Assembly: GCF_009914755.1 (NCBI RefSeq)
Contig: NC_060927.1
Strand: one strand, 5' to 3'
Source of the DNA: the human T2T-CHM13v2.0 reference genome, Homo sapiens
DNA length: 64,000 nt
Below, one piece after another: positions 42,582-46,810 of the stretch. Made by a program: the position numbers and the translations under genes. The number at the start of each line of letters is the position of its first letter. Position 1 is the first letter of the stretch. Below the pieces are notes generated by a model. The model was given only the letters and a program-made list of their open reading frames with translations. It did not search any database and was not told the origin of the DNA.

Positions 42582-42991
42582 CTGTGATCTGGGGAGAATG
42601 ACCTCATGGACTTATTAAAGACTTCCTCACCTTCTGGCTTCTTATTAATACTGATGGAAGATCTCCAGGTGGGAGGAGAGAATGAGTGTTCATTTTGCTG
42701 GGACCCTCCCTTTTGGGCTGCTGTATGTTGCCCATGTCCCTCTACCACGGGTCATGGCTCCTGTCAGGCTGTGTTCCCTTACAACCATCCTTGTGTGATT
42801 GCCCCTTCAGTCCTAGATATAACCATGCTACTGTCATTAGCCCTGAGTACCACTCTTTCCCTCGATGGTTTCCTAAAACTCTGCCTTCGCTCATAGTTCT
42901 TTATCAAACTCTTCTCAACTGTTTGAGTGAGCCATCTTACTTCTTGACCATGTAGAAGGTTTTATGATGTGGAAAATAGTAGATTAATTTT

Positions 42992-43078
42992 TTTTTTTTC
43001 GGTGTTGAAGTCTTAATTTCGGCAATTTTGTTTTTTATTTCTACAATTTATGTTTGACATTTTTTCATATCAAGGTCA
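42992..43078 (-). other. SVA 3'-transduced sequence with second poly(A)
   Basis: Lies between the SVA tail and the left TSD copy GATTAATTTT (42982-42991; right copy 46101-46110). Confidence 0.8.
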
Positions 43079-43619
43079 TTTTTTCTTTTATTTTTTATTT
43101 TATTTTTATTTTTATTTTTATTTTTTTTTTTTATTGATCATTCTTGGGTGTTTCTCGCAGAGGGGGATTTGGCAGGGTCATAGGACAATAGTGGAGGGAA
43201 GGTCAGCAGATAAACAAGTGAACAAAGGTCTCTGGTTTTCCTAGGCAGAGGACCCTGCGGCCTTCCGCAGTGTTTGTGTCTCTGGGTACTTAAGATTAGG
43301 GAGTGGTGATGACTCTTAACGAGCATGCTGCCTTCAAGCATCTGTTTAACAAAGCACATCTTGCACCGCCCTTAATCCATTTAACCCTGAGTGGACACAG
43401 CACATGTTTCAGAGAGCACAGGGTTGGGGATAAGGTCACAGATCAACAGGATCCCAAGGCAGAAGAATTTTTCTTAGTACAGAACAAAATGAAAAGTCTC
43501 CCATGTCTACTTCTATCCACACAGACACGGCAACCATCCGATTTCTCAATTTTTTCCCCACCCTTCCCGCCTTTCTATTCCACAAAACCGCCATTGTCAT
43601 CATGGCCCATCCCCAATGA

Positions 43620-45620
43620 GCCGCTGGGCACACCTCCCAGACGGGGTCGTGGCCGGGCAGAGGGGCTCCTCACTTCCCAGTAGGGGCGGCGGGGCAGAAG
43701 CGCCCCTCACCTCCCGGATGGGGCGGCTGGCCGGGCGGGGGGCTGACCCCCCCACCACCCTCCTGGACGGGGCGGCTGGCCGGGCAGAGGGGTCCTCACT
43801 TCCCAGTAGGGGCGGCCGGGCAGAGGCGCCCCTCACCTCCCGGACGGGGCGGCCGGCCGGGCGGGGGGCTGACCCCCCCACCTCCCTCCCGGACAGGGCG
43901 GCTGGCCGACACCCCCCCCCGCCTCCCTCCCGGACGGGGCGGCTGGCCGGGCAGAGGGGCTCCTCACTTCCCAGTAGGGGCGGCCGGGCAGAGGCGCCCC
44001 TCACCTCCCGGACGGGGCGGCTGGCCAGGCGGGGGCTGATCCCCCCACCTCCCTCCCGGACGGGGCGGCTGGCCGGGCGGGGGGCTGACCCCCCACCTCC
44101 CTCCCGGACTGGGCGGCTGGCCGGGCGGGGGCTGACCCCCCCACCTCCCTCCCGGACGGGGCGGCTGGCCGGGCAGAGGGGTCCTCACTTCCCAGTAGGG
44201 GCGGCCGGGCAGAGGCGCCCCTCACCTCCCGGACGGGGCGGCTGGCCAGGCGGGGGGCTGATCCCCCCACCTCCCTCCCAGACGGGGCGGCTGGCCGGGC
44301 TGGGGGCTGACCCCCCACCTCCCTCCCGGACTGGGCGGCTGGCCGGGTGGGGGCTGACCCCCCCACCTCCCTCCCGGACGGGGCGGCTGGCCGGGCAGAG
44401 GGGCTCCTCACTTCCCAGTAGGGGCGGCCGGGCAGAGGCGCCCCTCACCTCCTGGATAGGGCGGCTGGCCGGGCGGGGGGCTGACCCCCCCACCTCCCTC
44501 CCAGACGGGGCGGCTGGCCGGGCGGGGGGCTGACCCCCCCACCTCCCTCCCGGACGGGGTGGCCGGCCGGGCGGGGGGCTGACCCCCACACCTCCCTCCC
44601 GGACAGGGCAGCTGGCCGACCCCCCCCCGCCTCCCTCCCGGACAGGGCGGCTGGCCGGGCAGAGGGGCTCCTCACTTCCCAGTAGGGGCGGCTGGGCAGA
44701 GGCGCCCCTCACCTCCCGGACGGGGCGGCTGGCCAGGCGGGGGCTGATCCCCCCACCTCCCTCCCGGACGGGGCGGCTGGCCGGGCGGGGGGCTGACCCC
44801 CCACCTCCCTCCCGGACTGGGCGGCTGGCCGGGCGGGGGGCTGACCCCCCCACCTCCCTCCCGGACGGGGCGGCTGGCCGGGCAGAGGGGTCCTCACTTC
44901 CCAGTAGGGGCGGCCGGGCAGAGGCACCCCTCACCTCCCGGACGGGGCGGCCGGCCGGGCGGGGGGCTGACCCCCCCACCTCCCTCCCGGACGGGGCTGC
45001 TGGCCGGGCGGGGGGCTGACCCCCCCACCTCCCTCCTGGATGGGGCGACTGGCCGGGCAGAGGGGCTCCTCACTTCCCAGTAGGGGCGGCCGGGCAGAGG
45101 AGCCCCTCACCTCCTGGACGGGGCGGCTGGCCGGGCGGGGGGCTGACCCCCCCCACCTCCCTCCCGGACGGGGTGGCTGCCGGGCGGAGACGCTCCTCAC
45201 TTCCCAGACGGGGTGGCTGCCGGACGGAGGGGCTCCTCACTTCTCAGACGGGGCGGTTGCCAGGCAGAGGGTTTCCTCACTTCTCAGACGGGGTGGCCGG
45301 GCAGAGACGCTCCTCACCTCCCAGACAGGGTTGCGGCCCAGCAGAGGCGCTCCTCACATCCCAGACAGGGCGGCGGGGCAGAGGTGCTCCCCACATCTCA
45401 GACGATGGGCGGCCGGGCAGAGACGCTCCTCACTTCCTAGATGGGATGGCGGCGGGGAAGAGGCGCTCCTCGCTTCCTAGATGGGATGGCGGCCGGGCAG
45501 AGACGCTCCTCACTTTCCAGACTGGGCAGCCAGGCAGAGAGGCTCCTCATATCCCAGACGTTGGGGGGCCAGGCAGAGACTCTCCTCACTTCCCAGACGG
45601 GGTGGCGGCTGGGCAGAGGC
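43620..45620. repeat. SVA VNTR (~2 kb, CpG/GC-rich)
   Basis: Mixed ~40-50 bp units such as CCTCCCGGACGGGGCGGCTGGCCGGGC... Confidence 0.95.
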
Positions 45621-45994
45621 TGCAATCTCGGCACTTTGGGGGGCCAAGGCAGGCGGCTGGGAGGTGGAGGTTGTAGCGAGCCGAGATCACGCCACTGCAC
45701 TCCAGCCTGGGCACCATTGAGCACTGAGTGAACGAGACTCCGTCTGCAATCCCGGCACCTCGGGAGGCCGAGGCTGGCGGATCACTCGTTGTTAGGAGCT
45801 GGAGACCAGCCCGGCCAACACAGCAAAACCCCGTCTCCACCAAAAAAAAACGAAAACCAGTCAGGCGTGGCGGCGCGCACCTGCAATCGCAGGCACTCGG
45901 CAAGCTGAGGCAGGAGAATCAGGCAGGGAGGTTGCAGTGAGCCGAGATGGCAGCAGTACCGTCCAGCTTTGGCTCGGCATCAGAGGGAGACCGT

Positions 45995-46100
45995 GGAGGG
46001 AGAGGGAGAGGGAGAGGGGGAGGGGGAGGGGGAGGGAGAGGGAGAGGGAGAGGGAGAGGGAGAGGGAGAGGGAGAGGGAGAGGGAGAGGGAGAGGGAGAG
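45995..46100. repeat. SVA hexamer (AGAGGG/CCCTCT)n with GGAGGG variants
   Basis: Direct reading. Confidence 0.95.
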
Positions 46101-46810
46101 GATTAATTTTCAATAAAGACTCCAAATAAAGATAATTTCCCCTAAAAAAGGATTCTGCCTTCCACGCTTATCTTCAGCCCACCTATCCTCTCAATTGTCT
46201 TGGGCTGCAGGAGAAAATGCACTTGCCAGAACTAAAGAATATTGATCCCTTTCTACAAACTAAGACGTGATAGAAAAGTTGAAGAGGTACCTTTCCTGAG
46301 AATTTCTCAGAGCCTTGGTTACATTAAAGTGTCTTCAAGAATAGGCATGAGATACAGATTCCAAAACCTGAAATATATGGAAGAGAACTGGATACCGGAA
46401 GGGACTATTCTCATAACTTTATTGATAATTACACATGTTAATTTTATTTATTTGTTCATTAATTTATGTATTTATTTAAAAATATTTGAGGGGTTATCTG
46501 TGTTTCAGGTACTTCGATAGGTATTAGGCATAAAACTGTCACATAGTAGCATCTCTATTATTAAGGAGTGTATATAGCTTTGTAAATAGGGGCCACTGAC
46601 TAGTATCAAAACACACCATGTACTCATTATAGCTTGTTAAAGGTCCTTCTCAATCTTTGTATCATCTTAATATAACATGAAGTTAAAATAAACTAACACT
46701 TTAGAGTTATTGGTATATACATGTAACTGAATATGATGGACTCTACCATCACTATTATTAACCAATTCTGGTGCTTCCCTTACCAAGTTAGGTCAGAGTG
46801 TCAAAGAGTG

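What the first reader, a model, noticed from the sequence alone, without database searches (positions are those of the whole stretch)
42982..46110. SVA insertion carrying a 3' transduction (double poly(A) inside one TSD)
Seen: the SVA 5' hexamer is flanked by GATTAATTTT (46101-46110). The matching copy is not at the SVA tail (43079-43132) but further out, at 42982-42991. Between them lie a second T-run (42988-42999) and ~79 bp of non-SVA DNA (43000-43078), with a minus-strand AATAAA (43034-43039) about 33 nt before that second tail. The implied empty site reads TTTT/CA, an L1-endonuclease-like site. Known: SVAs read through their weak poly(A) signal and co-mobilise downstream DNA. Inference: this copy came from a specific source SVA, and the 79 bp is a barcode of that locus. 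The tag resembles an old L1 ORF1 coiled-coil fragment (AAATTGTAGAAATAAAAAACAAAATTGCCGAAATTAAG), suggesting the source sits inside an L1.
Basis: partly seen in the sequence, partly recalled or inferred. Interest (0 to 1): 0.8.

Follow-up and report, generated by a model that had tools for sequence, protein, structure and literature searches.

The report
SVA insertion carrying a chr1-derived tag
A young SVA jumping gene on chromosome 3 carried an 80-90 base piece of chromosome 1 with it when it copied itself, which is a genuine but well-known by-product of how these elements move.

Summary

**The element.** A full-length, minus-strand SVA lies at 43084-46100. It has a hexamer repeat, an Alu-like part, a ~2 kb VNTR, a SINE-R and a patterned A-tail. 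After it come 79-88 bp of foreign DNA and a second, pure A-tail. The whole is enclosed by one 10-bp target-site duplication, GATTAATTTT.

**Where the tag comes from.**
- The tag is 88/88 identical to a single other place in T2T-CHM13, chr1:153,795,732-153,795,819. There it runs on without a break into its flanks on both sides.
- The homology begins at a TTTTT/AT site, which looks like an L1-endonuclease target.
- It ends 34-38 nt after an AATAAA.
- CHM13 has no SVA at that chr1 site or within 10 kb of it. The chr1 locus therefore looks like the empty allele of a source SVA that is polymorphic or lost.
- No sibling copies carry the tag in CHM13.

**Age.** The element looks like SVA_E. Its SINE-R is 99-100% identical to 39 other copies.

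**What is not supported.** The tag has no detectable L1 homology. It does end 5 bp before an old, 5'-truncated L1 ORF2 remnant.

**Verdict.** This is an ordinary SVA 3' transduction, a well-catalogued phenomenon. Interest is low.

The parts
42982..42991 (-). 3' copy of the target-site duplication (sense AAAATTAATC). Its four T's merge into the second tail.
42992..42999 (-). Second, pure poly(A) tail (T's on the + strand). 42996-42999 could instead be templated by the AAAA in chr1, which leaves 4-8 untemplated A's.
43000..43078 (-). Core of the transduced tag. The full stretch identical to chr1 is 42996-43083 (88 bp, 100%).
43034..43039 (-). AATAAA signal used by the read-through transcript, 34-38 nt upstream of the cleavage site.
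43084..43132 (-). Internal A-tail inherited from the source SVA: 49 nt with 6 T and 1 G interruptions on the sense strand. A (TAAAAA)n pattern creates extra AATAAA hexamers.
43133..43630 (-). SINE-R module ending in ...GATCAATAAA. The SVA's own poly(A) signal is at 43130-43135. The boundary with the VNTR is approximate.
43631..45620 (-). VNTR, about 2 kb, with 37-49 bp units and higher-order periods.
45621..45995 (-). Alu-like module (boundaries approximate). It carries motifs seen only in SVA_E-labelled rows among those shown.
45996..46100 (-). 5' (CCCTCT)n hexamer array, 17.7 copies. The element is full length and has no 5' transduction.
46101..46110 (-). 5' copy of the target-site duplication. 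The empty site reads ...AATAGTA GATTAATTTT/CAATAAAG.

Best explanation
This is a single L1-mediated retrotransposition of an SVA read-through transcript, the classic 3' transduction. The inferred steps are:
1. A source SVA, probably SVA_E, once sat on the minus strand at T2T chr1 between 153,795,819 and 153,795,820. It had inserted at a 5'-TTTTT/AT-3' site.
2. RNA polymerase II ran through the SVA's own AATAAA and its A-tract.
3. It continued 79-88 nt into the flank. The transcript was cleaved and polyadenylated 34-38 nt after the next AATAAA.
4. L1 ORF2p, acting in trans, nicked chr3 at 5'-TTTT/CA-3'. It primed on the new poly(A) tail and copied the whole RNA.
5. Second-strand cleavage 10 bp away produced the GATTAATTTT duplication.

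Shown: the anatomy, the unique chr1 origin of the tag, the empty state of chr1 in CHM13, and the signals at both junctions. Inferred: that an SVA once sat, or still sits in other people, at the chr1 site. CHM13 would then carry the unoccupied allele.
For: 1. One 10-bp duplication encloses the SVA, tail, tag and second tail.
2. The tag is 79/79 and then 88/88 identical to one other genomic place, with E 2.2e-36. An 18-mer from its start occurs at exactly those 2 places and 0 times in the reversed control.
3. In chr1 the 88 bp run on into unique flanks on both sides. In chr3 the homology stops at the T-run on one side and at the SVA tail on the other. chr1 is therefore the parent and chr3 the retro-copy.
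4. The chr1 junction reads TTTTT/AT on the nicked strand. The other end lies after AATAAA-N34, with CACCG/AAAA at the cleavage point.
5. The internal tail is patterned and the outer tail is pure. That fits a genome-encoded tract followed by a newly added tail.
6. The element is young and full length.
   - Its SINE-R is 99-100% identical to the other 39 of the 40 candidates scored, out of 2095 candidates.
   - Its Alu-like motifs occur in 90, 73 and 1 rows of Table S2 of PMC12593883. All 18 rows shown are labelled SVA_E.
7. The literature reports that such events are common. 159 of 543 polymorphic SVAs carry a 3' transduction, 32 of these together with a 5' one (PMC12593883 section 7). [quoted passage not shown]
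Against: - No SVA is present at the chr1 site or within 10 kb either side in CHM13. The only blast hits there are Alu matches to the Alu-like part and A/T-tract matches. The source itself has therefore not been seen.
- The source is not in the one catalogue of active SVA sources I could read in full. None of the 55 entries in Table S8 of PMC12593883 is on 1q21-q22. The tag and the expected duplication strings are absent from that supplement.
- No sibling carries the tag in CHM13.
- The second tail is short, with 4-8 untemplated A's.
- The internal tail contains 7 AATAAA hexamers. All would have been bypassed if they were already in the source RNA.
- A junction at an A5 run is also what a microhomology-guided template switch would give.
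Confidence: 0.92

Rival explanations
1. Template-switch chimera. L1 reverse transcriptase began on an independent polyadenylated RNA transcribed from the chr1 locus. At its A5 run it jumped onto the poly(A) end of a separate SVA RNA. No SVA ever sat at chr1.
For: The chr1 site is empty in CHM13. The junction lies in an A-run, which could supply microhomology. PMC12593883 section 7 proposes this mechanism for the SVA-CKS1BP chimera.
Against: - It needs a short transcript that happens to start exactly at an L1-endonuclease-like TTTTT/AT site.
- The internal tail is a patterned 49-nt tract, not a pure A-tail. That fits a genome-encoded tail inside one RNA better.
- 3' transduction is far more common: 159 of 543 polymorphic SVAs carry one.
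Confidence: 0.04
2. Two nested events. A short retro-copy of the chr1 piece (an 'orphan' transduction) inserted first, and an SVA later landed exactly at its 5' end.
For: Orphan, SVA-less transductions exist (PMC12593883 section 7).
Against: Only one duplication pair is present, and it encloses both parts. No second duplication flanks the SVA alone. The best local match is a 6-mer, TTTTCA, 12 bp away from the tail (my reading).
Confidence: 0.015
3. The tag is native chr3 flank, and the 10-bp match is coincidental.
For: By count alone the 10-mer is not rare in the window. The expected number is 0.94, and 25 of 100 shuffles gave at least 2.
Against: - The tag is 88/88 identical to chr1, where it runs on into its flanks on both sides.
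- In chr3 the identity ends exactly at a T-run and at the SVA tail.
- The 400 bp on either side of the insertion are single-copy in CHM13.
Confidence: 0.005

Closest known systems
SVA 3' transduction. I recall the original descriptions as Xing et al. 2006 PNAS and the Hancks and Damert 2009 papers; none was readable here. Recent catalogues seen: PMC12593883, PMC10681720, PMC9311842, PMC12350158, bioRxiv 10.1101/2021.07.12.451456.
   Same: The architecture is TSD, SVA, internal A-tail, unique DNA with its own AATAAA, second A-tail, TSD. The tag maps to one other locus. The tag length (79-88 bp) is within the reported range: the median is 114 bp for all transductions, 5' and 3', carried by SVA_E elements, and the overall range is 9 bp to 4 kb.
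   Different: The source SVA is absent from the assembly that holds the offspring. No siblings were found. I could not confirm that this particular copy is listed in any catalogue.
L1 3' transduction (I recall the first descriptions as Moran 1999, Goodier 2000 and Pickeral 2000)
   Same: The mechanism is the same: read-through of a weak poly(A) signal, use of a downstream signal, and target-primed reverse transcription by ORF2p at a TTTT/N site.
   Different: The passenger here is a non-autonomous SVA mobilised in trans.
Template-switch chimeric retro-copies (for example SVA-CKS1BP, PMC12593883 Fig. 3d legend)
   Same: A foreign polyadenylated sequence lies 3' of a complete SVA inside one duplication.
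   Different: Those chimeras carry processed mRNA. Here the piece is non-genic flank that starts at an endonuclease-like site.

Membership tests
SVA retrotransposon (full length) | 5' (CCCTCT)n hexamer, Alu-like region, VNTR, SINE-R, AATAAA plus A-tail | tested here: met
   TRF finds the hexamer at 45996-46101 and VNTR arrays at 43631-45620. The Alu-like and SINE-R sequence was read directly. The SINE-R is 99-100% identical to 39 other copies.
SVA retrotransposon (full length) | L1-type insertion hallmarks: target-site duplication and a T-rich nick site | tested here: met
   The duplication is the 10-bp GATTAATTTT, and the empty site reads TTTT/CA.
SVA_E subfamily | Subfamily-diagnostic positions compared with the Dfam consensus | tested here: inconclusive
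   No consensus library was available. Indirect evidence: three Alu-like motifs from this copy occur in 90, 73 and 1 rows of Table S2 of PMC12593883, and all 18 rows shown are labelled E. That table holds only subfamilies D, E, F and F1. Older subfamilies are made unlikely only by the 99-100% SINE-R identities.
3' transduction | Non-element DNA between the element's own tail and the 3' duplication, ending in a second poly(A) preceded by a poly(A) signal | tested here: met
3' transduction | The transduced DNA maps to a unique parental locus where it is continuous with its flanks | tested here: met
   88/88 identity at chr1, with only 2 genomic copies
3' transduction | A source element lies immediately upstream of the parental sequence | tested here: inconclusive
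   Absent in CHM13 at the site and within +-10 kb. Only this one haploid assembly could be searched, so a polymorphic or lost source cannot be excluded or shown.
3' transduction | The parental junction looks like an L1 endonuclease target, because the tag starts with the source's 3' duplication | tested here: met
   chr1 reads ...GGTCATTTTT/ATAGTC on the nicked strand
   - phmmer in 3 frames against the PDB at E<=10 gave only unrelated hits.
- In 8 of 8 L1 copies, colinear homology starts only at L002:1492, after the tag.
- An nhmmer profile gave no hit at E<=100.
- The adjacent DNA, L002:853-1492, does match ORF2p residues 335-516 with E 7e-4 to 3e-3.

The most novel reading that the evidence does not exclude
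The 88-bp tag marks an SVA_E progenitor at T2T chr1:153,795,819/820 that is absent from CHM13. It is also absent from the 55-source catalogue I could read. That progenitor may still segregate at low frequency, or may have been lost after leaving this single offspring. If it still segregates, it would be an unrecorded, possibly still active, source element that could be found with the tag as a probe.
Probability: 0.3. Interest if true: 0.25.

Novelty: already known. Interest (0 to 1): 0.15.

Why it matters
The practical value is small.
- The tag links this chr3 SVA to one progenitor site on chr1, so it can be used to look for that progenitor in pangenome assemblies.
- It illustrates that offspring can outlive, or be sampled without, their source.
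- It adds nothing new about mechanism. SVA 3' transductions are counted in the hundreds in published surveys.

Tried and rejected

I repeated it with stops read as X.

**Catalogue look-ups for this copy or its source**
- PMC12593883 supplement, searched by my rough, recalled guess of GRCh38 coordinates: the only hit was an unrelated chr5 row.
- The same supplement, searched by tag and duplication strings: none found.
- Table S8 of that paper, read whole: no 1q21-q22 source.
- PMC12350158 supplements: no '1q21.3' or '3q13.1x' strings.
- PMC9311842 supplement: too large to read.
- The Science version of Hoyt et al. and Xing et al. 2006 are not held, and bioRxiv supplements are closed. Whether this copy is in their lists stays open.

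**Searches in CHM13**
- Paralogous empty site: both 400-bp flanks are single-copy.
- Siblings by private variants in the Alu-like part:
  - AACAACGAG occurs only in this copy.
  - Two C-to-T variants (one at a CpG) occur in 27 and 32 copies, and the two lists share no locus other than this one.
  - No sibling could be named.

**Idea dropped**
- I first thought the tag was L1 ORF2 residues ~283-312, judging by eye. I dropped this.

Full report
**1. Observation**

Read on the minus strand, the region has this order:
- CTTTATTG
- [AAAATTAATC], 46110-46101
- (CTCTCC)n, 17.7 hexamer copies, 46100-45996
- Alu-like part
- VNTR of about 2 kb, roughly 45620-43631
- SINE-R ending GATCAATAAA, 43630-43133
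- a 49-nt patterned A-tract: A12, then T-interrupted A4-6 runs, with one G (43132-43084)
- 79-88 nt of non-SVA DNA
- a pure A-run
- [AAAATTAATC], 42991-42982
- TACTATTTTCC

The 10-mer occurs only at these two places in the window. Its count alone is unremarkable: 0.94 are expected, and 25 of 100 shuffles gave at least 2. Both copies, however, sit exactly on the boundaries of the insertion. The fixed-position chance is 4.6e-4 for the six bases that cannot be confused with the tail, and 2.8e-6 for all ten. This includes the AATAAA at 43034-43039, which lies 34 nt before the second tail.

**2. Origin of the tag**

- A search of the whole assembly with 43000-43078 found two places: the window itself and chr1:153,795,736-153,795,814, at 79/79 identity.
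- With more chr1 flank as the query, the identical stretch is 88 bp. It spans window 42996-43083 and chr1:153,795,732-153,795,819, with E 2.2e-36.
- An 18-mer from the start of the tag occurs at exactly these 2 places and 0 times in the reversed control.
- In chr1 the 88 bp are embedded in continuous unique sequence. In chr3 the identity stops at the T-run on one side and at the SVA tail on the other. chr1 is therefore the parent and chr3 the retro-copy.
No ape or other human assembly was available to test it directly.

**3. The chr1 site is empty in CHM13**

- Where the SVA should follow, the sequence is ...TCAAGGTCATTTTT|ATAGTCTTGTTCC.
- I blasted the 3,022-bp SVA against 23 kb around the site. 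The only matches were Alu matches to the Alu-like part (query 2579-2913, 68-96% identity) and A/T-tract matches (query 1-59). Nothing matched the SINE-R or the VNTR.
- On the nicked strand the junction reads TTTTT/AT, an L1-endonuclease-like site.
- The other end of the tag is CACCG/AAAAGG, 34-38 nt after AATAAA.
- Both junctions fit an SVA that once sat there, with a read-through transcript ending at the next usable signal.
- PMC12593883 (section 10) describes the same situation for polymorphic SVAs. [quoted passage not shown]

**4. Age and subfamily**

- The 508-bp SINE-R query returned 2095 candidates, of which 40 were scored. The 39 that are not the window itself are full-length matches at 99-100% identity. 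Their bit scores are 899-912 against 917 for the self match, which I read as about 1-4 mismatches.
- Three Alu-like motifs from this copy occur in 90, 73 and 1 rows of Table S2 of PMC12593883. All 18 rows shown carry the label SVA_E.
- That table holds only subfamilies D, E, F and F1. The E call is therefore probable, not formal.
- The zero differences in the 88-bp tag are too few bases to date the event.

**5. Siblings**

- No other copy carries the tag.
- One variant in the Alu-like part is unique to this copy.
- Two C-to-T variants (one at a CpG) are shared with 26 and 31 other copies. The two lists have no locus in common apart from this one, so they look recurrent.

**6. The L1 remark**

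- The chr1 DNA just beyond the tag's poly(A) site (L002:853-1492, same strand) matches human L1 ORF2p residues 335-516. The top five PDB hits have E 7e-4 to 3e-3; the next five are unrelated, at E 0.6-0.8.
- That stretch also has 38 dispersed matches of about 70% identity, nearly all starting at or within a few tens of bases downstream of L002:1492 and none upstream of it.
- In 8 of 8 fetched copies the colinear homology begins at that point.
- Seven of those copies continue as mutually alignable L1 further upstream.
- A profile of that upstream L1 DNA finds nothing in the 228 bp of chr1 that include the tag.
- The three sense frames of the tag region hit no L1 protein in the PDB at E<=10.
- So the source site abuts a 5'-truncated old L1 ORF2 fragment. 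The tag itself is not demonstrably L1, and the ORF1 coiled-coil idea has no support.

**7. Mechanism and rivals**

The best reading is a 3' transduction (confidence 0.92).
- A template switch from an independent chr1 transcript onto SVA RNA (0.04) would also leave chr1 empty and could use the A5 run as microhomology. It needs a transcript that starts exactly at an endonuclease-type site. It also explains the patterned internal tail less well.
- Nested insertions (0.015) are contradicted by the single pair of duplications.
- Native flank (0.005) is contradicted by the single pair of duplications and by the sharp ends of the homology.

**8. Relation to what is known**

SVA 3' transductions are routine.
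- 159 of 543 polymorphic SVAs carry one, 32 of these together with a 5' one (PMC12593883 section 7).
- 748 3' events were found among 7,554 insertions (PMC10681720 passages).
- 55 highest-confidence SVA 3' events were annotated in CHM13 itself (bioRxiv 10.1101/2021.07.12.451456 passages).
- 176 source SVAs were identified in 1,019 genomes (PMC12350158 passages).

I could not open the CHM13 list, because bioRxiv supplements are closed and the journal version is not held. Xing et al. 2006 is also not held. Whether this exact copy is listed remains unchecked. In the supplement I could read in full, neither the source nor the tag appears.

**9. Verdict**

The finding is real, was read correctly, and is ordinary. 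The only mildly interesting residue is that the progenitor is missing from the assembly that carries its offspring.

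Noticed in passing
window 43087-43135 (minus strand): The (TAAAAA)n pattern of the internal A-tail creates 7 AATAAA hexamers in a row, counting the SVA's own. If that pattern was already in the source, the read-through transcript skipped all seven and used the eighth, at 43034-43039. The pattern may instead have arisen after insertion.
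   Followed up: no
window 42988-42999: The outer tail is only 12 T's. Four belong to the duplication, and up to four could be templated by chr1. That leaves 4-8 untemplated A's. This is short compared with the mean of 29 bp reported for polymorphic SVAs with 3' transductions (PMC12593883 section 7).
   Followed up: partly
window 43022-43864: The RefSeq 'enhancer' in the hub's annotation starts inside the transduced tag. It covers the SINE-R and the first VNTR units. NCBI's repeat mask starts at 43021. Because such elements are curated on GRCh38, this suggests (my inference) that the insertion is also present in GRCh38.
   Followed up: no
G000:C6:126576204-126576711 against Table S8 of PMC12593883: One of the closest SINE-R matches starts at the same number as the start coordinate of an SVA_E source listed in Table S8 (chr6:126576204-126578654). 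That row may therefore be in T2T rather than GRCh38 coordinates. Its strand is given as plus, whereas my hit is on the minus strand.
   Followed up: no
L002:1735-2040 and L002:690-745 (chr1 locus): A minus-strand Alu lies about 150 bp upstream of the inferred source insertion point. A (CT)n(GT)n microsatellite lies downstream of the old L1 fragment.
   Followed up: no
window 45776-45798 (minus strand): The Alu-like variant ...CTAACAACGAG... is found in no other place in CHM13. It could serve as a private marker of this copy or of its missing source.
   Followed up: partly
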